Shown here in pieces: positions 23,420-54,739 of a stretch of 64,000 bases of DNA. The stretch is taken from positions 283,153-347,152 of the forward strand of contig OX044368.1 of the NCBI GenBank assembly GCA_943846775.1, in the 5' to 3' direction. Source of the stretch: an uncultured PS1 clade bacterium (GTDB lineage Bacteria > Pseudomonadota > Gammaproteobacteria > PS1 > Pseudothioglobaceae). The notes under the pieces were generated by a model, which saw only the letters and a list, made by a program, of their open reading frames with translations, ran no database searches and was not told the DNA's origin. Position 1 is the stretch's first letter. Every line of letters begins with the position of its first letter. The position numbers and the translations under genes are program-made.

Positions 23420-23891
23420 GCTTTGTTTTTTTTTCATTGTATAAATCCACTAAAATCAATAAAATAACGCCCAAAGTAATTGCTATATCTGCCACATTAA
23501 ATACCGGCCAATAAAAATCTTGGTAATGCAAATCAATAAAATCAATCACAAAGCCAAGCACAGCCCGATCAATTAAATTACCAATCGCACCTGAGAGAAT
23601 AAGGCCAAGTGCAGCAAGCTTAAACACTTGGGTCTGGCTTGTTTTAACCATCCAAATAACAATTGCCAAGCTGGCCACTGATGAAATAGTTACTAAAAAA
23701 TACTGTTGCCAGCCATCTTCATTGGCCAAAAAACTAAAGGCAGCGCCATAATTATGCACATGACTAATGCTTAAAAAACTAGTAATTTCAAAAGACTCAT
23801 ATAGTTTTAAATAGTCATACACCATTAGCTTAGTCAGCTGATCAATCACCACCAATAACAACACTAAAACGAACCACTTAGCATGCTTCAT
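23412..23891 (-). CDS. lspA: Lipoprotein signal peptidase II
   Basis: DQLTK, NYGAAFS, GAIGNLIDR, VIDFI, FNVAD. Confidence 0.97.
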   Translation of the reverse strand: MKHAKWFVLVLLLVVIDQLTKLMVYDYLKLYESFEITSFLSISHVHNYGAAFSFLANEDGWQQYFLVTISSVASLAIVIWMVKTSQTQVFKLAALGLILSGAIGNLIDRAVLGFVIDFIDLHYQDFYWPVFNVADIAITLGVILLILVDLYNEKKTKHE

Positions 23892-25348
23892 GCTTTACTA
23901 GGGTTGTATTTAATAATGGTTACAATTGGAACAACAAATCCAGTAATAATTACCACCCAAAGTAAACTACCAAGTTCACTATAGTTTTGAGCGGTAGTAA
24001 TAACACCCTCTGTAACCACCTCACGACTAACGACAAAGACCTGATTTAAATATTTGGTAAAGAGCCCACCAGCAGTTAAAGCAATATTCATCAAACTTGC
24101 CATAAGCGCAAACCAAGTGCCCTTTTTACCCTCAGGCGCATAAATAGCGACCAAAGTTAGCATAAGCACTTGGGCGATATAATCAAAAGGAGAAGCTATT
24201 GCTGTATCCACTAAAGCTACCGTTCGTGCATCAAACCCTAACATAGTGTGTATATCGTAATACATGGCAACAATTGGCATAGACAGTAACGTACCAATAA
24301 TGGTTAAAAAAATAAGCACTTCAGCAATATCACGTTTAATGATAAATTTAGCTGAAAACCACATGCCTGCTAAAGCAATACCACCACCAATAGCGGATAA
24401 TTTTGCAAAAAAAGATTCGTCAAAGCCAAGCACATCAATTTGCCACCAACTTAATCCTGCGCCAACGGAAGGCATAGCGCGATAAACAAAAATAATAATC
24501 ATGGCCATTTTGATATGACGAATGGTTTTTGGATCAAGATCATTGATTAAATCATTCAATAAATACAAAATAACAAACAAAGATATAACAAAGACTATTT
24601 CTTGTGAATAAGCTATATCATTGTAACCCATGACAATAATAAAAACTGCAAATGCCATTCCACCATAAAGCACGTGCTTATTTATCGGGGATATTTTTAC
24701 GTCATTAAGCCTAACTAAACCAACACCAATGATTGATAAAACAGGTACAAAAAGTGCAATCATAAATACAATTTCGCGCTCATCTTTGTAAATATCTGCA
24801 ATTTCTCCGCCAATCCAGCCAGTGAGAAATATCGCTAAACCTAGAGACAGTCTTGCTAAAACTTGAATAGTGGCAAGCTCGTGATGAATTTCTTCTTCAG
24901 ATTGGTTTTTATCATAAACTTCAGTAGTCATGGTATCAGCCACCACATCTTGCATTACAAAACCAATAACAGCAATTACACTAGCAAAAATATAAATAGT
25001 TTTCTTTGAGTAATCCTCAACAATAGGATAATCACCCACTACAGCAATCATTAATAATGAGCTTATGGTGATAAGTGCCGCACCAATGTATACATAGGAT
25101 TTTCGATTAGATCCAAAAATATTAATACTATCAACCATGGAACCAAAAATCATTTTTACTGTCCAAGGTACGGTAAGCCAAATACCTAATTCGGCGAGAT
25201 CTGCCGCAGTCATGTCTAATGCTTCTTTAACCCAAAACTGCTGAGCAATGCCCACAAAAACACTGCTTCCATAAGCAAAATAAATCAACAGCAACGGAAT
25301 ATATCGCATTCTAAAAGCGCGAATCGGGGTTAAGAAAATATCCAACAT
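23888..25348 (-). CDS. BT1/FBT-family (folate-biopterin) MFS transporter
   Basis: PW.VK..FG...D....FG..RKSY signature; about 12 TM segments; likely start MLDIFLTP. Confidence 0.7.
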   Translation of the reverse strand: MLDIFLTPIRAFRMRYIPLLLIYFAYGSSVFVGIAQQFWVKEALDMTAADLAELGIWLTVPWTVKMIFGSMVDSINIFGSNRKSYVYIGAALITISSLLMIAVVGDYPIVEDYSKKTIYIFASVIAVIGFVMQDVVADTMTTEVYDKNQSEEEIHHELATIQVLARLSLGLAIFLTGWIGGEIADIYKDEREIVFMIALFVPVLSIIGVGLVRLNDVKISPINKHVLYGGMAFAVFIIVMGYNDIAYSQEIVFVISLFVILYLLNDLINDLDPKTIRHIKMAMIIIFVYRAMPSVGAGLSWWQIDVLGFDESFFAKLSAIGGGIALAGMWFSAKFIIKRDIAEVLIFLTIIGTLLSMPIVAMYYDIHTMLGFDARTVALVDTAIASPFDYIAQVLMLTLVAIYAPEGKKGTWFALMASLMNIALTAGGLFTKYLNQVFVVSREVVTEGVITTAQNYSELGSLLWVVIITGFVVPIVTIIKYNPSKA

Positions 25349-25440
25349 TTGTAAAATAATAATTAGCAGAAACAGTTGATTATTATAGGGGTTGTGTAGG
25401 TTATAATCTAGGATTTTATAAATCACAAAATGGAGAATTT

Positions 25441-42718: not shown

Positions 42719-44125
42719 ATGGGCCTACCTACCATCTCCCTTGTTGGACGCCCGAATGTGGGTAAGTCTACTTTATTTAATCGATTAAGTCACTCTCGCC
42801 AGGCGCTTGTGTCTGACTTTGAAGGTCTAACTCGCGATCGTCAATATGCAGAGGTTTTACTTGATGAAGATAGCAACACCTTTGCAACGATTATTGACAC
42901 AGGTGGTCTGACCAATGAAGACAATGTTGTAGATAGCGGTATCCAAGGACAGGTGTTAAGTGCTCTTGAAGAATCTGACATTATTTATTTTATTGTCAGT
43001 AGTCGAGATGGTGTTATTGGTCTAGATTTAGAAATTGCTTCTCGTCTTAGACGACTAAAAAAAGAAGTTATTCTTGTTTGCAACAAATCTGAAGGTTTGG
43101 ACGAAATTAAAGCAGCTGAATTCTACGAATTAGGCTTAGGCACGCCTAGATTAATATCAGCTGAACACGGCCAAGGCCTAGCCGATTTGATCGAACTAAC
43201 CCTACCTTTGCTACCTAAAAAAGTAGTAGAAGAAAAAGAAGAGGTAGAGGGGATTGCAGTAGCAGTACTAGGCAGGCCGAATGTTGGAAAGTCAACCCTT
43301 ATTAATCGAATTTTAGGCGAAGAGAGAGTTCTAGCCATTGACATGCCCGGCACAACACGTGACAGCATCTACATCCCTTTTGAACGCGAAGATCAAAAAT
43401 ACACACTGATTGATACCGCTGGCATTAGACGTAAACGCTCTACTCACGAAAAAATTGAAATTTTTTCCATTATTAAAGCTATCGATGCACTTGATCGATC
43501 GCACGTGGTGATTCTCGTTTTGGATGCGCGTGAAGGTGTTACCGAGCAAGATGCAACACTCCTTGGTATGATTGCAGATAAGGGTCGAGCACTGCTGATT
43601 GTAATTAACAAGTGGGATGGTTTGGACGAATATCAAAAATCCGAAGTGAAGCGCAAACTAGACGTTAAACTTTCATTTGTTAATTATGCCAGCGTGCACT
43701 ACATTTCAGCATTACATGGCTCAGGTGTTGGTAAATTATTTGCACCGATTATCAAATCTTACAAAAATGCAGGCGCTCAGCATTCCACTTCAACGTTAAA
43801 TAAAATCTTAGAAGCAGCTAATCATGGCCATCAACCGCCACCAGTTAAAGGCAGACGTTTAAAAATTAAATATGTCAATCAAACAGATGTGTTTCCGCCA
43901 ACTCTTACTTTTCATGGCAATCACCTTCAAAACGTTCCAAATGCGTATGATCGCTACTTAAAGAATTTCTTTACTGATGCACTTAAATTAACAAATACAC
44001 CTTTGAGATGCGAATATAAAAGTGGAGAAAACCCTTTTAAAGACAACAAAAATGAGTTAAACGCCAGACAAGTGACTAAAAAGCGCCGCTTAATGAAATT
44101 TATTAAAAAAAGAAAAAAGCGCTAG
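42719..44125 (+). CDS. der: Ribosome biogenesis GTPase Der
   Basis: Two GRPNVGKST G-domains, GLTRDR, GTTRD, KH-like C-terminus. Confidence 0.97.
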   Translation: MGLPTISLVGRPNVGKSTLFNRLSHSRQALVSDFEGLTRDRQYAEVLLDEDSNTFATIIDTGGLTNEDNVVDSGIQGQVLSALEESDIIYFIVSSRDGVIGLDLEIASRLRRLKKEVILVCNKSEGLDEIKAAEFYELGLGTPRLISAEHGQGLADLIELTLPLLPKKVVEEKEEVEGIAVAVLGRPNVGKSTLINRILGEERVLAIDMPGTTRDSIYIPFEREDQKYTLIDTAGIRRKRSTHEKIEIFSIIKAIDALDRSHVVILVLDAREGVTEQDATLLGMIADKGRALLIVINKWDGLDEYQKSEVKRKLDVKLSFVNYASVHYISALHGSGVGKLFAPIIKSYKNAGAQHSTSTLNKILEAANHGHQPPPVKGRRLKIKYVNQTDVFPPTLTFHGNHLQNVPNAYDRYLKNFFTDALKLTNTPLRCEYKSGENPFKDNKNELNARQVTKKRRLMKFIKKRKKR

Positions 44126-44451
44126 TTAAAGCTTAATTGAGCATTTTTCTTGTGAAGTGTTGCATTGAATTCACAATAAGAATTCTCAAGCATTATCGCT
44201 TGAGAGGGATCATCACTACAAGCGCAGCCTGATAAAATTTCACAGAAAAACACGCCAATCTTTAAATAGATTGCTTGAGAATCTGCTGAGCTTGTTAAAA
44301 TGGTTACGCCAATTGTATCTTTGTCGATGACACCACTGTGTTGACAGCAATCAAGTAGTGGCAACTCCTCTAAACTTAATTCGCCAAAAGCACGCTTAAA
44401 ATACTCAGAGAAATCTGCACTACCCCAATATTTAAGCGCCTGATCAAACAC
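44122..44451 (-). CDS. Cys-rich hypothetical protein (109 aa)
   Basis: GTG start directly after the pyrG TAG; motifs LPL..CC, G.FF.EI..GC.C.DDP, YCE. Confidence 0.65.
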   Translation of the reverse strand: MFDQALKYWGSADFSEYFKRAFGELSLEELPLLDCCQHSGVIDKDTIGVTILTSSADSQAIYLKIGVFFCEILSGCACSDDPSQAIMLENSYCEFNATLHKKNAQLSFN

Positions 44452-47954: not shown

Positions 47955-49334
47955 CTAGCTTTTGATCACTAGCATCTTATGTTCAAGCATATCTTTCATA
48001 CTATAGCCAATACCACCAATGCCATAACCCGAATGCTTGCGCCCAGCAAATGGCATCCAGTCTACTCTAAAGGTGGTGTAATCATTAATCATGACTGCAG
48101 AAGCCTCTAGCTTTTTAGCAATATCCATAGCTTTGGAGATATCATCACTAAAGACAGCTGCTTGAAACGAAACATCCAAACTATTTGCCTCTGCGATAGC
48201 TTCGTCGATATCTTGGTAGCCATAGACACAAACAACCGGGCCAAAAATCTCCTGAGTGGAGACTTTCGAATGTTTGCTCGGATTAAGTAGTACCGTTGGC
48301 TCATAACTTACCTCATTAATACGCCTGCCACCTGTAACTACTTGCGCACCTTCTGCTAGTGCTTCATTAACCCATGATTCTATTCTATCAGTCTCTTTTG
48401 GTAAGATAAGCGGGCCTAAATCACTCTCCTCATTAATCGCATCGCCAACGATCTGTTTAGCGGCAATATTAGCAATTTTCTGCGCTAGCTCGCTTGCTCG
48501 GTTTTGGGGGACATAAACACGTTGTACCGATACACAAACTTGGCCTGAATGATACATACTTGCCTTAACCACGCCATTAACAAAACCCACCTCATCTGCG
48601 TATTGGTCAAAAATAAGTGGCGCCACACCACCATGCTCTAGTGCGCAGCGCACACCAGGCGCTAGCTTGGATTTAAGGTACCAACCAACTTTGGCAGACC
48701 CAATAAAACTAAAAAAGGCAACGCGCGAATCAGTAACTAATTTTTCAGAATTTTCACGATTAGTGAGTGCCACTTGTACCCAGCCCTCTGGCAAACCAGC
48801 TTCCAAAATAAGCTCTGCTAAACGCAAGGTTGATAGAGGCGTCAGTGCAGCTGGCTTAATAATAACAGGACAACCCGTTGCAACTGCCGGAATAACCTGG
48901 TGAATGGCTAAATTTAACGGATGGTTAAAAGCACTTACTGCTACAACTACACCGATCGGCTCTAAAATTGTAAAAGCCTTGCGCCCACTACCTGCTGCAC
49001 TTAAATCCATTGGGACTTCAAAACCTTGACTATTTTGAATTTCGGCGATTGCAATATGAATGCCGCCTACTGCACGTGTTACTTCCACACGAGCATCTCG
49101 AATTGGCTTGCCACCTTCATTAGCAACCAACCGAGAAAACTGCTCATGCTCATTTGCCACCAAATCAGCAAGCTTTCTTAATATATTGACACGCTCATAA
49201 ACGGGTAAGGCACCTTGTTTGTGCAATAATTGCGCTGTCGCCAACATGTTATCTACCTGCTTGGCATCATGCATTGTTAATTCTTTTAAGATCTCACCTG
49301 TATAGGCCTGCTTTACTTGTAGTAAATTTGACAT
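47955..49334 (-). CDS. NAD(P)-dependent aldehyde dehydrogenase (ALDH21/RL0313-like; candidate succinic semialdehyde dehydrogenase)
   Basis: EPIGVV.AVSAFNHPLNL, IKPA, FIGS, LEHGG (Glu), GQVCVSVQR (Cys), EIFGP, VDWMPF.GR..SG. Confidence 0.85.
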   Translation of the reverse strand: MSNLLQVKQAYTGEILKELTMHDAKQVDNMLATAQLLHKQGALPVYERVNILRKLADLVANEHEQFSRLVANEGGKPIRDARVEVTRAVGGIHIAIAEIQNSQGFEVPMDLSAAGSGRKAFTILEPIGVVVAVSAFNHPLNLAIHQVIPAVATGCPVIIKPAALTPLSTLRLAELILEAGLPEGWVQVALTNRENSEKLVTDSRVAFFSFIGSAKVGWYLKSKLAPGVRCALEHGGVAPLIFDQYADEVGFVNGVVKASMYHSGQVCVSVQRVYVPQNRASELAQKIANIAAKQIVGDAINEESDLGPLILPKETDRIESWVNEALAEGAQVVTGGRRINEVSYEPTVLLNPSKHSKVSTQEIFGPVVCVYGYQDIDEAIAEANSLDVSFQAAVFSDDISKAMDIAKKLEASAVMINDYTTFRVDWMPFAGRKHSGYGIGGIGYSMKDMLEHKMLVIKS

Positions 49335-49341
49335 AATCTTT

Positions 49342-50979
49342 TTAATTATTAAATTGTTTCAAATCATCAATGAGTGTTTTAGTGTTTTGAGAATAATCAA
49401 TAGGCAAATCAATTAAATGTACGCCTCCTTGATTAAACGCTTTTTGCATAGTTGGAATAAGCTCCTCACTAGAAGAAATTAAATGACCATTTGCACCATA
49501 ACTTTTTGCATACATAACAAAATCTGGATTGTTAAAATCGAGTGCAAAATCAGGCAACTCCTGTACTTTTTGCTTCCACTTAATCATGCCATAACCACTA
49601 TCATTAAATATAATTACTATCAAGCTTAATTTTAGCCTTACTGCTGTTTCCAGCTCTTGGGAATTCATCATAAAACCGCCGTCACCACAAACTGCAACTA
49701 CCTGTCTATCTGGATACATTAGTGCACATGCAATGGCTGACGGAAGTCCAGCACCCATTGTTGCTAAGGCATTATCTAATAGTAAAGTATTGGGTTGATA
49801 CGTATGATAATGTCGAGCAAACCAAAGCTTAAACATACCATTGTCTAAAGATACAATTCCATTATCATCGAGCACTTTCCTTACATCAGAAACTGCTCTT
49901 TGCGGTAATACAGGAAAAGACGTATCATCATCTAAAGAATGAATTGCGTGCTTTATTCTTGCGCGGATCGGCTCAACCCATTTTCTATTGCAAGCATAGC
50001 AATTATTTAACGCATCATTAATCCGATCCATAGAATTAGAAATATGACCAACTACTTCAACCTGAGGATAGTAGATATCTTTGATTTGTGCTGAATGAAA
50101 ATTTACATGAATAACTTGCTGCTTATTACCTTTCATTATAAAGGGTGGCTTCTCAATAATATCATGACCTACATTAATAATTAAATCTGCTTTTTTAATA
50201 GCTTCATGAACATAGTCTTTAGATGAAAATGCAGCCGTTCCTAAAAAGTGTGAGTCATCACCACTTAAAACACCTTTACCCATCTGAGTATTAAAAAACA
50301 TAATGCCTGTTTTATTAACAAAATCAGATAAAGGTTTTCTAATGCGCTTACGATTGGCTCCAGCACCCACTAACAACAAAGGCCTTTTAGCCACTTTAAT
50401 AATATTAACTGCTTTTTCAATAGCGCGATCGCTGGCAAACACTCGATGGATGGTTTGCCTAGGAAAAACTCTTTCGTCTTCAACTTCCTCTCTAGCAATA
50501 TCTTCTGGTAATTCTAGATGAACAGCGCCTGGTCGCTCTTCTTCAGCAATACGAAATGCTCCACGAACTAATGAAGGGATTTGCCTCCCATAAACAATTT
50601 GATCAGAGTCTTTAACCAAAGGCTCCATCATTCTAATAATATCTAAAATCTGAAACTTTCCTTGCAAGCCCGCTTTGATAGGTTTTTGACCTGTAATAAC
50701 CACCATAGGCATACCACCTAATTGCGCATATGCAATTGCTGTAACTAGGTTTGTCGCACCTGGACCTAAGGTTGCTAAACATACGCCAGCTCTTCCTGTT
50801 AACCGACCATAAGTTGCCGCCATAAAAGCCGCAGCTTGTTCATGACGTGTTAAGATAAATTTAATTTTTGAGTTACGCAAAGAATCAAGTAAATCTAAAT
50901 TTTCCTCACCAGGAATGCCAAAAATATACTCTACACCTTCATTTTCTAAAGCTTTTACAAATAGGTCTGATGCCTTCAT
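49342..50979 (-). CDS. ThDP-dependent enzyme, acetolactate-synthase-like (cyanobacterial OgdA-like subfamily)
   Basis: LENEGVEYIFG.PGEENL, RHEQ.AAFMA, TLGPGATN, GDGGFMMNSQE; no ilvH-type small subunit adjacent. Confidence 0.85.
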   Translation of the reverse strand: MKASDLFVKALENEGVEYIFGIPGEENLDLLDSLRNSKIKFILTRHEQAAAFMAATYGRLTGRAGVCLATLGPGATNLVTAIAYAQLGGMPMVVITGQKPIKAGLQGKFQILDIIRMMEPLVKDSDQIVYGRQIPSLVRGAFRIAEEERPGAVHLELPEDIAREEVEDERVFPRQTIHRVFASDRAIEKAVNIIKVAKRPLLLVGAGANRKRIRKPLSDFVNKTGIMFFNTQMGKGVLSGDDSHFLGTAAFSSKDYVHEAIKKADLIINVGHDIIEKPPFIMKGNKQQVIHVNFHSAQIKDIYYPQVEVVGHISNSMDRINDALNNCYACNRKWVEPIRARIKHAIHSLDDDTSFPVLPQRAVSDVRKVLDDNGIVSLDNGMFKLWFARHYHTYQPNTLLLDNALATMGAGLPSAIACALMYPDRQVVAVCGDGGFMMNSQELETAVRLKLSLIVIIFNDSGYGMIKWKQKVQELPDFALDFNNPDFVMYAKSYGANGHLISSSEELIPTMQKAFNQGGVHLIDLPIDYSQNTKTLIDDLKQFNN

Positions 50980-52481
50980 TTATTTTCTCCTTCAACACAT
51001 AACGGACACAACTCAGCCATAGGGATAGACTTGCCATCATTTTGAACAATTCTAACATGTGTTTTATTTAGCATTCGCACTTCTTTAACCCCACATGAAT
51101 GGGCTATAGTTTGCAATGCGATCGAAATTCCTGAAACATATTCAGCTACTTTATCTGCTTTATTAATAGGATTAAGCCCTTTTTGTAACCTTTTGTTATG
51201 GGTAGTAATACCAGTTGGACAGGTGTTTTTATTACACTTTAACGATTGGATACAGCCAATAGCAAACATAAAGCCACGCGCTGAGGTAACAAAATCAGCG
51301 CCAGCACAAACAGCCCAAGCTACATCTGCTGGTGTAATTAACTTACCAGAAGCTATGACCTTTATTCTATCTTTTAGGCCATTCTGAATAATCTTGTCTA
51401 CAACAATTGGCAAAGCTTCTTTTAGGGGCAAACCGACATTATCCATTAACTCCATTGGAGCAGCGCCAGTGCCGCCATCCCCACCATCAATTGCAATAAA
51501 ATCTGGGGCAAAATCTCTTCCTCTGCCATTAACCTCTTTAAGTAAAGTAGTTAGCCAGGTCACATCCCCAATAACAGTTTTAAAGCCTACAGGTTTTTTT
51601 GTAATTAACTTAACATGATTAATTAAATCTAATAATTCACCAATATTAGAAACCTCAAGGTGACGATTAGGGGAGATTGAATCCAATCCTTTAGGAATAC
51701 CTCTAATGCTTGCTATTTCAGCTGTTACTTTAACCCCAGGTAAAATTCCGCCTTTTCCAGGTTTTGCACCTTGAGAAATTTTTATTTCAAACATCTTCAC
51801 TTGCTGATGAGAAGCTACCTTAGCAAGTTTTTCATCATTTAAACTACCATCGGCATTTCTAACGCCATATTTAGCAGTTCCAATTTGAAAGACTAAATCT
51901 GCACCTCCTTCAAGGTGGTAAGGGCTTAATCCACCCTCACCAGTATTCATCCAACAACCTGATTGTCTTGCGCCATTAGATAGAGCTAAAACAGCTGGCT
52001 TAGATATAGCGCCATAACTCATGCCCGAAATATTAAAAATTGATCTTGCTGTATAAGGATTGTCACTATAACCCTTGCCAATTATCACGGATTCGGTTTG
52101 TACGCCATCTGAATCTAAGGTTGGAAATGGACAATTGATAAATATTGGCGTTCCAGGTGAACTTATATTTTTAGTAGAGCCAAATGCAATCGTGTTATCT
52201 CTTCCTTTAGAAGCTCTATCTACCCACTCTCTTTCTGCTCGATTAAAAGGCATTTCTTCACGATCCATCGCAAAGAAATATTGACGAAAAAAACTTCCTA
52301 AATTACTAAAAAGGTAACGAAAATGTCCGACAACTGGGTAGTTTTTTAAGAGGGCATTTTTACTTTGGCTAATATCATAGATAAAAGTTACTAAAATTGT
52401 CGCGAAAATCAATCCTAACAACCAAATAAACAAGATTGGCATTAAATTTAAAACAGTATTAAATGTTTCAGTCTGCTGCAT
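50976..52481 (-). CDS. FMN-binding glutamate synthase family protein with N-terminal TM segment
   Basis: ISGMSYGAIS, NTGEGG, KISQGAKPGKGG.LPG, DGGDGGTGAAP, C-x5-C-x4-C (CIQSLKCNKNTC); GGAGGG RBS. Confidence 0.88.
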   Translation of the reverse strand: MQQTETFNTVLNLMPILFIWLLGLIFATILVTFIYDISQSKNALLKNYPVVGHFRYLFSNLGSFFRQYFFAMDREEMPFNRAEREWVDRASKGRDNTIAFGSTKNISSPGTPIFINCPFPTLDSDGVQTESVIIGKGYSDNPYTARSIFNISGMSYGAISKPAVLALSNGARQSGCWMNTGEGGLSPYHLEGGADLVFQIGTAKYGVRNADGSLNDEKLAKVASHQQVKMFEIKISQGAKPGKGGILPGVKVTAEIASIRGIPKGLDSISPNRHLEVSNIGELLDLINHVKLITKKPVGFKTVIGDVTWLTTLLKEVNGRGRDFAPDFIAIDGGDGGTGAAPMELMDNVGLPLKEALPIVVDKIIQNGLKDRIKVIASGKLITPADVAWAVCAGADFVTSARGFMFAIGCIQSLKCNKNTCPTGITTHNKRLQKGLNPINKADKVAEYVSGISIALQTIAHSCGVKEVRMLNKTHVRIVQNDGKSIPMAELCPLCVEGENK

Positions 52482-52703
52482 TATCCCTCCAAGTTTTTGA
52501 TAGCTATCTTACGCCTAATTGGGATAATTTCAACCGTTAATATGCGCAAATTTTTACTATGCGTTTTCAAGTCAAAATAAAACACAATTCGAGAACAATA
52601 AAAAATTTGAAATGAATGGAATTATTTGACTGATTTTATCTTGAAGTCAATCAATTTTACGATTACTAAAAAAATATCAGAAGTAGCCAGTATTAATAAA
52701 AAA

Positions 52704-52733
52704 ACCACCTAAAAAACTATTTTTTAAGGTGGT
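52704..52733 (-). terminator. Intrinsic terminator after the TrpD-like gene
   Basis: accacct/aggtggt stem extended by A/T runs; T tract on the minus strand. Confidence 0.7.
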
Positions 52734-52758: not shown

Positions 52759-53829
52759 TTACTGGAGTCGTGCTAATACTTTTTTCGAATCTAAAACAGC
52801 TCTAACCATATCTGCCGCTTCAGCCAAAGTTGTTGCTTTTTTAGTATGCCAAAGCACAAGTGAAGCGCTCAATACCAAGCCATCATAAAACATACCTTGC
52901 TCTCCAGCCAACGCTGCCTTGCCTAATTTCACCGTATATTTTGCCAAAGCTGGAATATCGCTGTGGACATCCATCTCAGCTGGAAATGAAATCGCACGCA
53001 TATCTTGCTCAATACCCAATGAAGCTGGCTCAATATCTACTCGATTTTGCTCAACATTTCCTGCATATGAAACCATGAGTCCTTTTTGTCGCAAAGACGG
53101 AATCACGCCGCCTTCCACACCGCGCACTAAAAGTGCGCTATCCATGCCGGAAGATTTGACTAGCTCTGCATAGATTGGCGGATAAGGCTTATGCACATAG
53201 CCCAATATCGAATGAGTTTTCTTGCCGCGCAATGGACCGATTAAAGTTTCTACCGTATTAACAACAGTGCGTTTAATGACTCGATTACGCAGTTCAACTA
53301 AATCATGTAAACCGCGACAATAACTCGCTTGATCAATATAGGACCAACCAATACTTGGGTTTTCCAATCGGGCTTTGGCTTCTGCGGTGGAATGATCAAC
53401 ATCTAAACCTAAAGCTTCAACAATATGTCGGTGTGTGAGTCCAAATTTAGGACTAACACTATCTAAACCATGGATAACACAAGGCAAGCCTAACTCGGCT
53501 AACACAGGAGGCAAAAAAGACGAAATAGGAATTGAGCGATTATAACCACTATAAGGATCGCCTAAATCGACTAACTCATCAACATCAACAAACTGCTTGT
53601 CACTCTGAGCTAAAATACCCGCTAGAATACCCGTGTTTTCATCCATTGTTTCGCGCTTCATACGTAAGGCGATTAAAAAAATAGCTGATTGAACATCATC
53701 AATTTCACCGCGCAAAATAGCTTGCATGCCATCTCTAGCTTCCTCAAAGTCAATATTTTTACTCAAGTCTGGACCAGTGGCCACACGCTGAATAATAGAT
53801 TTCATTAATGCTTGCGAGTCGATACTCAT
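52759..53829 (-). CDS. Anthranilate phosphoribosyltransferase-like (glycosyl transferase family 3, TrpD2/YbiB-like) protein
   Basis: N-terminal helical domain FLIALRMKRET..E; lacks the TrpD GTGGD PRPP loop (DLGDPYSG instead). Confidence 0.75.
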   Translation of the reverse strand: MSIDSQALMKSIIQRVATGPDLSKNIDFEEARDGMQAILRGEIDDVQSAIFLIALRMKRETMDENTGILAGILAQSDKQFVDVDELVDLGDPYSGYNRSIPISSFLPPVLAELGLPCVIHGLDSVSPKFGLTHRHIVEALGLDVDHSTAEAKARLENPSIGWSYIDQASYCRGLHDLVELRNRVIKRTVVNTVETLIGPLRGKKTHSILGYVHKPYPPIYAELVKSSGMDSALLVRGVEGGVIPSLRQKGLMVSYAGNVEQNRVDIEPASLGIEQDMRAISFPAEMDVHSDIPALAKYTVKLGKAALAGEQGMFYDGLVLSASLVLWHTKKATTLAEAADMVRAVLDSKKVLARLQ

Positions 53830-53831
53830 GA

Positions 53832-54134
53832 TTAAACCTCGATATAAATTTCGTTATTCTCTTGTTTGACAGGATAAATATGCATATTATCCACATCTTC
53901 TTCTGAACTATCGCCAGTAGCCAAGTCAAAACTATAGCCATGTAAAGAGCATTTTACTCGATTACCCTTTAGACAACCTAGTGTTAACTCGATATCCTCA
54001 TGAGGACAACGATTCTCAGCACAATACAAATGACCATTATTTAAGGTAACAAATAATTTTTGACCTTTAACTTCCACTTCGACCATCGTGCCCTCTTTAG
54101 GAGGGCTATTAAGAACCTTGTACCAATGAGACAT
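53832..54134 (-). CDS. Rieske [2Fe-2S] ferredoxin
   Basis: NRCPH and KCSLHG ligands; start MSHWY via TAATG overlap. Confidence 0.88.
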   Translation of the reverse strand: MSHWYKVLNSPPKEGTMVEVEVKGQKLFVTLNNGHLYCAENRCPHEDIELTLGCLKGNRVKCSLHGYSFDLATGDSSEEDVDNMHIYPVKQENNEIYIEV

Positions 54135-54739
54135 TAAAATAAACTCCAAATACTATTACTATTTAACTCAGATTCACATTGCTGAAGTTGACGCTGATAA
54201 CGCTGTGCATTATCTTCAACCTTGCGCGCTACTTTTTTCAACCAAGGCTTCTTATTGTAAGATTGCCTTTGAAACCCACCATGACCTTCATGATAAGCCA
54301 AGTACTGATTGTAAGCATCAGATTTAGCAATACCCGCTAATTTTGCAGACTGATTAACATACCAGCCAACGAAATCTGCTGCATCATCAAAATCATCACG
54401 ATCTGCACTATGATTGCCTGTTTTTAACTGATACCATTCCCATGTTTCATCTTTAGCTTGAGCAAAGCCATAAGCCGTTGTTGGTCTAAACCACGGCACT
54501 ACACCAAAGAGTTTTTCTCTAGGCGGTTTAGCGTCTGAGGCAAAATGAGACTCTTGATACATAATGGCTAAAGACACATGTGCTGGTGCTCCATATTTTT
54601 TTTCAGCGGCTTTAACAGAACGATACCAGCTCACTTCTTCATCCATTAATGTACAGATGTTATTAACAGTCACTGCAGGTGTTGAAAAACACCCACTTAA
54701 AGCAAGTGACAAGAATGCTAATAATAAAATTTTGCTCAT
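54134..54739 (-). CDS. Lipoprotein with lytic transglycosylase (SLT-like) domain
   Basis: Lipobox LSGC; AIMYQES.F, AYGFAQA...TW, QYLAYHEG..G. Confidence 0.8.
   Translation of the reverse strand: MSKILLLAFLSLALSGCFSTPAVTVNNICTLMDEEVSWYRSVKAAEKKYGAPAHVSLAIMYQESHFASDAKPPREKLFGVVPWFRPTTAYGFAQAKDETWEWYQLKTGNHSADRDDFDDAADFVGWYVNQSAKLAGIAKSDAYNQYLAYHEGHGGFQRQSYNKKPWLKKVARKVEDNAQRYQRQLQQCESELNSNSIWSLF

What the first reader, a model, noticed from the sequence alone, without database searches (positions are those of the whole stretch)
47955..52481. Candidate 2-oxoglutarate decarboxylase / succinic semialdehyde shunt operon in a chemolithoautotroph
Seen: three co-directional genes with an ATGA overlap and a 7-bp gap: FMN glutamate-synthase-like, ThDP enzyme, ALDH; no ilvH or ilvC nearby. 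Known: in Synechococcus PCC 7002 an enzyme annotated as acetolactate synthase (OgdA) and an adjacent SSA dehydrogenase bypass the missing 2-oxoglutarate dehydrogenase. Moss ALDH21 is an NADP-dependent SSA dehydrogenase. Several SUP05-clade genomes are reported to lack 2-oxoglutarate dehydrogenase. From memory, the LENEGVEYIFG.PGEENL start fits the OgdA-containing subfamily and AFNHPLNL fits the ALDH21/RL0313 group. Inference: glutamate -> 2-OG -> SSA -> succinate, closing or feeding a TCA cycle thought to be broken; I know of no description of this in the lineage.
Basis: partly seen in the sequence, partly recalled or inferred. Interest (0 to 1): 0.85.

Follow-up and report, generated by a model that had tools for sequence, protein, structure and literature searches.

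The report
Probable 2-oxoglutarate-to-succinate shunt operon in SUP05
A three-gene operon in a SUP05 sulfur-oxidising marine bacterium most likely converts glutamate/2-oxoglutarate to succinate through succinic semialdehyde, which could fill the gap in a TCA cycle that the literature still describes as an open horseshoe; no enzyme here has been assayed.

Summary
Three minus-strand genes (GltB-like FMN protein, ThDP enzyme, ALDH) are joined by an ATGA overlap and a 7-bp gap. A hairpin+U7 terminator separates them from the upstream genes. The organism is a close relative of Ca. Thioglobus autotrophicus.

- The ThDP enzyme and genuine cyanobacterial 2-OG decarboxylase (OgdA/KGD) score alike on the same NCBIfam model (848 vs 852 bits on NF006187, misnamed 'acetolactate synthase').
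- It is 43-45% identical to KGD and keeps the two lysines modelled to bind 2-OG's carboxylates, where AlsS has H/Y and Q.
- It sits in a sister subclade to OgdA, and four other pocket residues differ.

In 67 judgeable non-SUP05 genomes, 79% have an ALDH directly downstream. The pair is fused in some proteins. In one Pseudomonas the partner is a bona fide GabD succinate-semialdehyde dehydrogenase.

The GltB-like gene is only a sporadic accessory: intact in part of SUP05, a pseudogene or absent in symbionts, and adjacent in 6 of 68 judgeable non-SUP05 loci. It retains the GltS 2-OG ligands and the 3Fe-4S cysteines.

The module is common in heterotrophs, so it is not an adaptation specific to broken TCA cycles. 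Substrates are inferred, not shown. No SUP05 paper I found mentions the route.

The parts
52697..52733 (-). Intrinsic-terminator-like hairpin (ACCACCUUAAAAAA-UAG-UUUUUUAGGUGGU) plus U7, directly after the TrpD-like gene; it insulates the trio from upstream transcription
   Evidence: Sequence. RNA fold -13.3 kcal/mol, z = -3.86, 0 of 200 shuffles as stable. Missed by the pattern scan.
52621..52650 (-). Sigma-70-like promoter candidate TTGACT-18-AATAAT in the 278-bp leader; GGAGG ribosome-binding site 5 nt before the FMN ATG
   Evidence: (10/12 match, best minus-strand site; the overall site count is not above chance). Weak evidence.
50976..52481 (-). Membrane-anchored stand-alone GltS-synthase-domain protein (FMN, predicted 3Fe-4S); proposed glutamate/2-iminoglutarate <-> 2-oxoglutarate oxidoreductase
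   Evidence: PF01645 at 298 bits. Aligns to GltS FMN domains. E182/Q237/K240/R260 correspond to GltS E903/Q969/K972/R992, and C410/C416/C421 form C-x5-C-x4-C-P. N-terminal hydrophobic helix around residues 13-35.
49342..50979 (-). ThDP-dependent 2-oxo-acid decarboxylase of the NF006187/PRK08322 family; proposed 2-oxoglutarate decarboxylase (succinic-semialdehyde-forming)
   Evidence: NF006187 848 bits (cut-off 509); fails the AlsS and AHAS models. 43-45% identical to cyanobacterial KGD. K384/K469/A406 match KGD rather than AlsS. Sister clade to KGD.
47955..49334 (-). NAD(P)+ aldehyde dehydrogenase of the MJ1411/ALDH21-like clade; proposed succinic semialdehyde dehydrogenase
   Evidence: PF00171. 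Best PDB hit ALDH21, 297 bits, 35% identity. R87/Y261/R423 correspond to ALDH21 R121/Y296/R457; catalytic C267 and E233 present. Directly downstream of the ThDP gene in 79% of judgeable non-SUP05 loci.

Best explanation
The three genes form one transcription unit encoding a short oxidative pathway at the 2-oxoglutarate node.

Step 1 (inferred, least certain): the membrane-anchored FMN/[3Fe-4S] protein is a glutamate synthase 'synthase domain' without the amidotransferase domain. It would oxidise L-glutamate through 2-iminoglutarate to 2-oxoglutarate + NH3 and pass electrons to a membrane or Rieske-type acceptor.

Step 2 (inferred from family membership, residues and partners): the ThDP enzyme decarboxylates 2-oxoglutarate non-oxidatively to succinic semialdehyde + CO2, as cyanobacterial OgdA/KGD does.

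Step 3 (inferred): the ALDH oxidises succinic semialdehyde to succinate with NAD(P)+.

Steps 2-3 are a widespread, self-contained two-gene module. Step 1 is an optional add-on. In SUP05, which lacks 2-oxoglutarate dehydrogenase, the module would be the only direct route from 2-OG (or glutamate) to succinate. It would either link the two arms of the 'horseshoe' TCA cycle or supply succinate/succinyl-CoA where the reductive arm is also incomplete.
For: Operon anatomy: ATGA overlap, 7-bp gap, upstream terminator hairpin (z = -3.9) and own leader.

ThDP enzyme: NF006187 848 bits; genuine Microcystis-type KGD, identified through four published MaKGD peptides, scores 852 bits on the same model. 43-45% identity to KGD against 31-33% to AlsS-type sequences. 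K386/K471, the carboxylate ligands of 2-OG in the MaKGD model (PMC10418658), are conserved as K384/K469, whereas AlsS types have H/Y and Q; A408 is conserved where AlsS has Q.

The product is an aldehyde handed to an ALDH: an ALDH lies directly downstream in 53 of 67 judgeable non-SUP05 loci, and ThDP-ALDH fusion proteins exist (P0143 cluster of 3 members with an 85-aa linker).

The aldehyde is probably SSA: in Pseudomonas chaetocerotis the partner is a true GabD (NF008415 950 > 828; TIGR01780 766 > 646). In three other loci the partner's best hit is an SSADH model. The window ALDH's closest solved relative is the SSADH ALDH21, with R121/Y296/R457 conserved.

Glutamate/2-OG link: the GltB-like protein is the single most recurrent upstream neighbour among 108 Pfam families. 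All such partners keep the GltS E903/Q969/K972/R992 equivalents and the three cluster cysteines. One Arenicella genome has GdhA glutamate dehydrogenase in that position.

Need: 149 of 216 Thioglobaceae genomes, including all SUP05, lack 2-OGDH (PMC13508795).
Against: - No enzyme of the window-type subclade has been assayed as far as I could find. 43-45% identity is too low for safe function transfer, and even within cyanobacterial KGDs activity varies about 500-fold at 80% identity.
- Q254, V382, A384 and H385 of MaKGD are replaced by S, N, M and F. The MaKGD contacts come from docking into an AlphaFold model, not a crystal structure.
- The window ALDH passes no NCBIfam SSADH model (269 vs 646) and is 35% identical to ALDH21. 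Both arginines also occur in M. jannaschii lactaldehyde dehydrogenase.
- The FMN gene is dispensable: absent in L126-L129 and L004, a pseudogene in clam symbionts.
- The B. thermophilus symbiont ALDH carries an ~86-aa internal deletion, so the pathway is not universally maintained in OGDH-less relatives.
- The GltS ligand assignments (E903/K972/R992) rest on my memory of the GltS literature; my paper search found no source.
- Transcript data were uninformative.
Confidence: 0.5

Rival explanations
1. Same chemistry, different substrate. The module degrades another amino or 2-oxo acid with an anionic side chain (for example 2-aminoadipate/2-oxoadipate to glutarate, aspartate/oxaloacetate to malonate, or cysteate/sulfopyruvate to sulfoacetate) by oxidation, ThDP decarboxylation and aldehyde oxidation, an Ehrlich- or mandelate-type logic.
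For: Four modelled pocket residues differ from KGD. The window enzyme is in a separate subclade. The second-best NCBIfam hits of the ALDH are sulfoacetaldehyde and phosphonoacetaldehyde dehydrogenases (276 and 271 bits). 18 partner ALDHs form a further uncharacterised class.
Against: All those ALDH hits are far below their cut-offs. A true GabD and SSADH-like partners occur in the same slot. The GltS-type ligands for a C5 dicarboxylate are retained in the FMN partner. A GdhA neighbour occurs in Arenicella. The only characterised members of NF006187 are strict 2-OG decarboxylases.
Confidence: 0.25
2. The annotation is right: the ThDP enzyme is a catabolic acetolactate synthase (AlsS-like), and the flanking genes are functionally unrelated.
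For: Public annotations call it acetolactate synthase. The closest solved structure, 13bb, is labelled acetolactate synthase (455 bits). AlsS models are the next-best hits.
Against: It fails both AlsS models (457 < 510; 420 < 551) and the AHAS model (383 < 538). It lacks the AlsS-type residues at KGD positions 386, 408 and 471. No small subunit, ilvC or acetolactate decarboxylase gene is nearby. Conserved ALDH coupling and fusion imply an aldehyde product. Proven KGD carries the same misleading name and even passes an AlsS cut-off.
Confidence: 0.05
3. The ThDP-ALDH pair is a 2-OG shunt, but the GltB-like protein is not its feeder. It works reductively as an ammonia-dependent, membrane- or Rieske-coupled glutamate synthase, or on another substrate, and is merely co-regulated at the 2-OG/nitrogen node.
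For: The FMN gene is absent from most loci carrying the pair and from several SUP05 genomes. It decays independently of the pair in clam symbionts. The native direction of the GltS synthase domain is reductive (established enzymology, from memory). Q978 is replaced by Ile/Leu/His in all these proteins.
Against: Translational coupling (ATGA) to the ThDP gene. It is the most recurrent upstream neighbour in unrelated phyla. In five of the six non-SUP05 cases it accompanies the same ALDH21-type partner.
Confidence: 0.3
4. The ThDP enzyme is a carboligase that uses decarboxylated 2-OG (or another donor) to form a C-C bond, like 2-hydroxy-3-oxoadipate synthase or MenD, rather than releasing a free aldehyde.
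For: The wider superfamily is rich in carboligases (one search lists glyoxylate carboligase, CeaS, BbmA and HACL). M. tuberculosis Kgd was re-assigned in this way.
Against: The tight and sometimes fused ALDH partner suggests a free or channelled aldehyde. Characterised family members release SSA.
Confidence: 0.08

Closest known systems
Cyanobacterial OgdA/KGD + SsaD bypass (SynPCC7002_A2770/A2771; sll1981; MAE_06010)
   Same: Same NCBIfam model for the ThDP enzyme (848 vs 852 bits). Shared N-terminal motif. The Lys386/Lys471/Ala408 equivalents are conserved. An ALDH gene is adjacent. The host lacks 2-OGDH. Proposed net reaction 2-OG -> SSA -> succinate.
   Different: Sister subclade at 43-45% identity. 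Four pocket residues differ. Gene order is reversed (ThDP then ALDH). The ALDH is non-orthologous (27-30% identity). A GltB-like FMN gene is present here but in none of 120 KGD loci. No biochemistry exists for the window-type subclade.
Moss ALDH21 (PpALDH21A1), NADP+-dependent SSADH (PDB 5mz5)
   Same: Closest solved structure. Arg121/Tyr296/Arg457 SSA-carboxylate ligands, the catalytic Cys/Glu and the oxyanion Asn are conserved.
   Different: Only 35% identity. The cofactor preference is untested. The two Arg are also present in M. jannaschii lactaldehyde dehydrogenase, so they do not prove SSA specificity.
Glutamate synthase alpha-subunit, synthase (FMN/3Fe-4S) domain
   Same: PF01645 domain. 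Equivalents of E903, Q969, K972 and R992, and the C-x5-C-x4-C-P cluster motif.
   Different: No amidotransferase, central or GXGXG domains. N-terminal membrane helix. Q978 -> Ile. Partner and electron acceptor/donor unknown. The proposed direction is oxidative.
Mandelate pathway MdlB-MdlC-MdlD (from my own knowledge)
   Same: Same three-step logic: a membrane-associated FMN dehydrogenase makes a 2-oxo acid, a ThDP decarboxylase makes the aldehyde, and an NAD(P)+ ALDH makes the acid.
   Different: Unrelated FMN fold family, a 2-hydroxy acid rather than a 2-amino acid, and an aromatic substrate.
Proposed 2-OG decarboxylase/SSADH route in Hydrogenovibrio/Thiomicrorhabdus/Thiomicrospira (Scott et al. 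2018, as cited in PMC9751133)
   Same: Related marine sulfur-oxidising autotrophs lacking 2-OGDH; same proposed bypass.
   Different: I could not read that paper or check whether the same gene family is meant. It concerns a different family (Thiomicrospiraceae), and no GltB-like component is mentioned in the citing text.
Catabolic acetolactate synthase AlsS
   Same: Sister clade in the tree. Same three-domain ThDP fold, no small subunit.
   Different: Fails the AlsS HMM cut-offs. Has Lys/Ala/Lys where AlsS has His-Tyr/Gln/Gln. Partner is an ALDH, not acetolactate decarboxylase.

Membership tests
NCBIfam NF006187 / PRK08322 (named 'acetolactate synthase large subunit'; contains cyanobacterial KGD) | Whole-protein HMM score above the curated cut-off (509 bits) | tested here: met
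   847.8 bits, full-length match. Genuine cyanobacterial KGD scores 851.6 bits.
OgdA/KGD clade (2-oxoglutarate decarboxylase, EC 4.1.1.71) | Branches within the clade of characterised cyanobacterial KGDs | tested here: not met
   The NJ tree places it in a sister subclade (LLDNALATMGAGL type) separate from the KGD/IISNGF type. No bootstrap was run.
OgdA/KGD clade (2-oxoglutarate decarboxylase, EC 4.1.1.71) | 2-OG carboxylate ligands Lys386 and Lys471 (MaKGD numbering) | tested here: met
   K384 and K469. AlsS-type sequences have H/Y and Q.
OgdA/KGD clade (2-oxoglutarate decarboxylase, EC 4.1.1.71) | Remaining modelled pocket residues Gln254, Val382, Ala384, His385, Leu467 | tested here: not met
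   S252, N380, M382, F383, M465.
OgdA/KGD clade (2-oxoglutarate decarboxylase, EC 4.1.1.71) | Strict decarboxylation of 2-OG to SSA in vitro | not testable with these tools
   Needs enzyme assays.
Catabolic acetolactate synthase AlsS | Score above the NF006378 (510) or TIGR02418 (551.1) cut-off | tested here: not met
   456.6 and 420.0 bits. Note that proven KGD passes NF006378 (532 bits), so this cut-off is not function-specific.
Biosynthetic AHAS (IlvB/G/I) | TIGR00118 score at or above 538.35, and an adjacent regulatory small subunit | tested here: not met
   382.8 bits. No ilvH/ilvN-like ORF in the neighbourhood.
ALDH21 family (NADP+ SSADH) | At least 40% identity to family members (ALDH nomenclature rule, from my own knowledge) | tested here: not met
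   35.0% over 452 aligned residues to PpALDH21A1.
ALDH21 family (NADP+ SSADH) | SSA-carboxylate ligands Arg121, Tyr296, Arg457 | tested here: met
   R87, Y261, R423. Both Arg are also present in lactaldehyde dehydrogenase 3pqa, so the discriminating power is low.
GabD-type SSADH (TIGR01780 / NF008415) | HMM score above cut-off (646.35 / 828) | tested here: not met
   268.6 and 237.3 bits.
Glutamate synthase large subunit (GltB) | Complete four-domain architecture with the amidotransferase domain (NF008730 cut-off 1047) | tested here: not met
   131.5 bits. Only the FMN domain region 861-1163 of the model is matched.
Stand-alone GltS synthase-domain proteins (PF01645) | PF01645 domain with FMN-site/2-OG ligands and the 3Fe-4S Cys triad | tested here: met
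   298 bits. E182/Q237/K240/R260 and C410/C416/C421. The ligand roles are recalled from memory, not from a paper read here.

The most novel reading that the evidence does not exclude
The membrane-anchored GltS-synthase-domain protein is a respiratory glutamate:acceptor (quinone- or Rieske-linked) oxidoreductase. It feeds 2-oxoglutarate directly into a decarboxylase/SSADH shunt. That would give a previously unrecognised three-enzyme glutamate-to-succinate pathway, which lets 'obligately autotrophic' SUP05 bacteria gain electrons, NAD(P)H, ammonium and C4 skeletons from glutamate. The same module recurs in Nitrosomonas, lucinid symbionts, Arenicella, Opitutales, Bacteroidota and Roseobacter-group bacteria.
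Probability: 0.2. Interest if true: 0.75.

Novelty: new variant of a known kind. Interest (0 to 1): 0.55.

Why it matters
SUP05/Thioglobaceae are among the most abundant chemoautotrophs in oxygen-minimum zones, vent plumes and bivalve symbioses. Their central carbon metabolism is still modelled as a horseshoe TCA cycle because 2-OGDH is missing (PMC13508795, 2026).

A working 2-OG -> SSA -> succinate route would change flux models. It would provide a source of succinate/succinyl-CoA where MDH/SDH are also absent, and it would open the possibility of glutamate use (mixotrophy).

More broadly, the window-type ThDP subclade is present in many phyla and is uniformly annotated 'acetolactate synthase large subunit'. 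The evidence here suggests a systematic misannotation of a widespread 2-oxo-acid decarboxylase/ALDH module. It also gives stand-alone GltB-like membrane flavoproteins, which have no assigned function as far as I know, a first testable functional context.

Tried and rejected
1. I looked for cyanobacterial KGD among the top 150 50%-identity representatives using MaKGD primer-derived peptides. No close match turned up. A degenerate DNA pattern scan of metagenomes solved this instead.
2. Metatranscriptome contigs cover the locus at 57-363x. They also span convergent genes and give flat depth, so they say nothing about co-transcription or expression level.
3. Consensus promoter/terminator counts were not above the shuffled expectation. 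Only the manually found hairpin was significant.
4. An Rfam scan of the operon and leader found nothing; the one hit (SNORD38) has E = 0.33 and is below its gathering score.
5. My own ORF clustering of neighbours was distorted by antisense ORFs in high-GC genomes. I replaced it with a bulk Pfam census.
6. I rejected the ALDH21 Arg/Tyr triad as a specificity marker after finding both Arg in lactaldehyde dehydrogenase.
7. The P0121 fusion is a singleton without a linker and may be a sequencing artefact of a short intergenic gap. Only the P0143 cluster is counted as solid.
8. A literature search for the GltS ligand residues found nothing.
9. I could not identify the organism or function behind PDB 13bb.
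10. I could not scan the host genome for sucAB, sdh, mdh, sucCD or ilvIH. The window itself holds only housekeeping genes.

Full report
OBSERVATION. The window carries three co-directional minus-strand ORFs at exactly the stated coordinates:
- 52481..50976: 501 aa, Pfam Glu_synthase PF01645.
- 50979..49342: 545 aa, three ThDP-enzyme domains.
- 49334..47955: 459 aa, Aldedh.

The FMN gene's TGA overlaps the ThDP ATG (ATGA). The ThDP TAA is followed by 'aaagatt' and then the ALDH ATG, giving the 7-bp gap. Upstream, the TrpD-like gene ends in a hairpin (ACCACCUUAAAAAA-UAG-UUUUUUAGGUGGU) plus U7. It folds at -13.3 kcal/mol, z = -3.86, and 0 of 200 shuffles are as stable. A promoter-like TTGACT-18-AATAAT and a GGAGG ribosome-binding site lie in the 278-bp leader. 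The promoter scan as a whole is not above chance. The trio therefore looks like its own transcription unit. No ilvH/ilvN/ilvC is nearby. The organism is a SUP05-clade bacterium: the proteins are 80-93% identical to those of Ca. Thioglobus autotrophicus EF1, which has the identical arrangement.

THE ThDP ENZYME. It scores 848 bits on NCBIfam NF006187/PRK08322 (cut-off 509). It fails AlsS (457 < 510; 420 < 551) and biosynthetic AHAS (383 < 538). To compare it with real 2-oxoglutarate decarboxylase, I took four MaKGD peptides from the mutagenesis primers of PMC10418658. I scanned metagenome contigs for a degenerate pattern encoding FNDGGYGLIEW and recovered Microcystis-type KGD (L055, one mismatch across the four peptides) and relatives.

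Main results:
- The window enzyme is 43-45% identical to these KGDs, against 31-33% to AlsS-type sequences.
- Genuine KGD scores 852 bits on the same NF006187 model, so the model's name 'acetolactate synthase large subunit' is misleading. KGD even passes an AlsS cut-off.
- Of the residues that contact 2-OG in the MaKGD docking model, Lys386, Lys471 and Ala408 are conserved as K384, K469 and A406. AlsS types have H/Y, Q and Q there. Gln254, Val382, Ala384, His385 and Leu467 are replaced by S, N, M, F and M.
- A neighbour-joining tree places NF006187 as sister to AlsS and splits it into a KGD-containing group and a second group that holds the window enzyme.

The enzyme is thus a family member but not an OgdA orthologue. 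The contact residues derive from docking into an AlphaFold model, and cyanobacterial KGDs themselves differ about 500-fold in activity. Function transfer is therefore plausible but not secure.

LINKAGE. The one genome-collection scan used an alignment of window-type sequences and returned 80 loci at 56-85% identity. They come from very diverse bacteria: Burkholderia, Pseudomonas, Alteromonas, Colwellia, Marinobacter, Methylophagaceae, Nitrosomonas, Planctomycetes, Bacteroidota, Bradyrhizobium and others.

ALDH partner:
- Among 67 judgeable non-SUP05 loci, 53 (79%) have an ALDH directly downstream on the same strand.
- Across all 57 loci with a downstream ALDH, SUP05 included, the partners fall into four types: 35 window/ALDH21-like (47-57% identity outside SUP05), 18 in a conserved sister class, 3 whose best model is an SSADH (PRK09406-type, below cut-off), and 1 true GabD.
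- The true GabD is in Pseudomonas chaetocerotis: NF008415 950 bits against a cut-off of 828, and TIGR01780 766 against 646.
- ThDP-ALDH fusion proteins exist. The P0143 cluster has three members and an ~85-aa low-complexity linker. P0121 is a singleton and may be an artefact.
- A bulk Pfam census of flanking genes found no other conserved partner: 108 upstream and 116 downstream families.

Together these results say that the ThDP enzyme makes an aldehyde that is handed to a dedicated ALDH. The GabD displacement points to succinic semialdehyde.

THE ALDH. The closest solved structure is moss ALDH21, an NADP+-dependent SSADH (297 bits, 35% identity). Its SSA-carboxylate ligands Arg121/Tyr296/Arg457 (bioRxiv 10.64898/2026.01.13.699213) are conserved as R87/Y261/R423. 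Three points weaken this:
- Both arginines also occur in M. jannaschii lactaldehyde dehydrogenase.
- The protein passes no NCBIfam equivalog.
- It is not orthologous to the cyanobacterial SsaD, which lies upstream of KGD and is 27-30% identical.

THE GltB-LIKE PROTEIN. It comprises an N-terminal hydrophobic helix followed by a GltS synthase domain.
- Counting along the Synechocystis Fd-GltS chain in the printed alignment, the equivalents of E903, Q969, K972 and R992 are conserved, as are the three 3Fe-4S cysteines. From memory, those four residues are the 2-OG/2-iminoglutarate ligands; I found no paper to cite. Q978 is Ile.
- All GltB-like proteins found next to the pair share these residues.
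- The protein lacks the amidotransferase domain, so the chemically simplest roles are glutamate oxidation to 2-OG + NH3 with a membrane or Fe-S acceptor, or the reverse reaction.

Its linkage is sporadic but recurrent.
- Within SUP05 the trio is intact in EF1 and in a divergent free-living Thioglobus lineage.
- The gene carries the same frame break plus internal stops in two clam symbionts.
- It is absent from L126-L129 and from the B. thermophilus symbiont.
- Outside SUP05 it is adjacent in 6 of 68 judgeable loci: Leisingera, Nitrosomonas, a Lucinoma symbiont, Arenicella, Vicingaceae and Opitutales. It is nonetheless the most frequent upstream Pfam family.
- In Nitrosomonas one of two tandem copies is fused to a Rieske domain. 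The window has a stand-alone Rieske gene two genes upstream.
- One Arenicella genome has a GdhA-type glutamate dehydrogenase in the position where its congener has the GltB-like gene.

PHYSIOLOGY AND LITERATURE. SUP05 and Bathymodiolus symbionts are reported to lack 2-OGDH, often MDH as well, and in symbionts SDH (PMC5581435, PMC10199937). A 2026 survey finds 2-OGDH missing in 149 of 216 Thioglobaceae genomes, including all SUP05, and interprets this as a horseshoe TCA cycle (PMC13508795). None of the papers I found mentions a decarboxylase bypass in this lineage. A 2-OG decarboxylase/SSADH route has been proposed for the related Thiomicrospiraceae (PMC9751133 citing Scott et al. 2018).

The module is widespread in heterotrophs, so it is not a specific adaptation to a broken cycle. 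Where MDH/SDH are missing it could supply succinate rather than close a cycle; that is my inference. I could not examine the rest of the host genome. The window's other genes are housekeeping.

VERDICT. The best reading is a (Glu ->) 2-OG -> SSA -> succinate module. Its core is a widespread and misannotated ThDP-decarboxylase/ALDH pair, and its optional first step is a membrane GltS-domain flavoprotein. Substrate identities are inferred from family membership, two conserved lysines, partner displacement by GabD and neighbourhood hints, not from any assay. I put the confidence at 0.5, with a different anionic 2-oxo acid as the main rival. It is a new variant of a known kind of bypass, of moderate to good interest because of the ecological weight of SUP05 and the breadth of the misannotated family.

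Noticed in passing
L005:4508-5997 and L208:2489-3996: The GltB-like gene of two vesicomyid clam symbionts (Abyssogena phaseoliformis symbiont, Ruthia sp.) has the same frame break between residues 223 and 224 and internal stops, with a near-identical junction sequence. The downstream ThDP and ALDH genes stay intact. This looks like a shared inherited pseudogene.
   Followed up: partly
L004:7635-8756: The ALDH of the Bathymodiolus thermophilus symbiont lacks roughly residues 102-187 (373 aa called), and the GltB-like gene is absent. The module may be decaying in this symbiont, or the draft assembly may be faulty.
   Followed up: partly
window 52759-54149 (-): A TrpD2/YbiB-like protein (356 aa, below all NCBIfam cut-offs) and a 105-aa Rieske ferredoxin form a pair that is conserved upstream of the ThDP gene in SUP05, whether or not the FMN gene is present. 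The Rieske protein is a candidate redox partner of the GltB-like protein, given the Rieske-GltB fusion in Nitrosomonas.
   Followed up: partly
L148:2455-5971: Nitrosomonas sp. has two tandem GltB-like genes upstream of ThDP-ALDH. The first carries an N-terminal Rieske [2Fe-2S] domain (Pfam-confirmed).
   Followed up: yes
L181:3849-5207: Arenicella sp. 4NH20-0111 has a GdhA-type glutamate dehydrogenase divergently upstream of ThDP-ALDH, where another Arenicella genome (L158) has the GltB-like gene.
   Followed up: yes
L196:7795-9147: Pseudomonas chaetocerotis has a bona fide GabD NADP-dependent succinate-semialdehyde dehydrogenase (950 bits, cut-off 828) directly downstream of a window-type ThDP enzyme.
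   Followed up: yes
L106 (cyanobacterial-type KGD) vs NCBIfam: Genuine KGD scores 852 bits on NF006187 ('acetolactate synthase large subunit') and passes the AlsS equivalog cut-off NF006378 (532 > 510). This points to systematic misnaming of this family in public annotation.
   Followed up: partly
window 23888-25426 (-): A 512-aa ORF with no NCBIfam match at E <= 1e-30, lying among housekeeping genes.
   Followed up: no
window 44122-44451 (-): A 109-aa Cys-rich ORF between pyrG and der, conserved and called in related contigs, with no Pfam family.
   Followed up: no
window 49593-49664: One low-depth (6x) metatranscriptome contig in run X1 joins 49593 to 49664, replacing the 70 bases between them inside the ThDP gene with 70 unmatched letters. 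This is probably a divergent strain variant or an assembly artefact.
   Followed up: no
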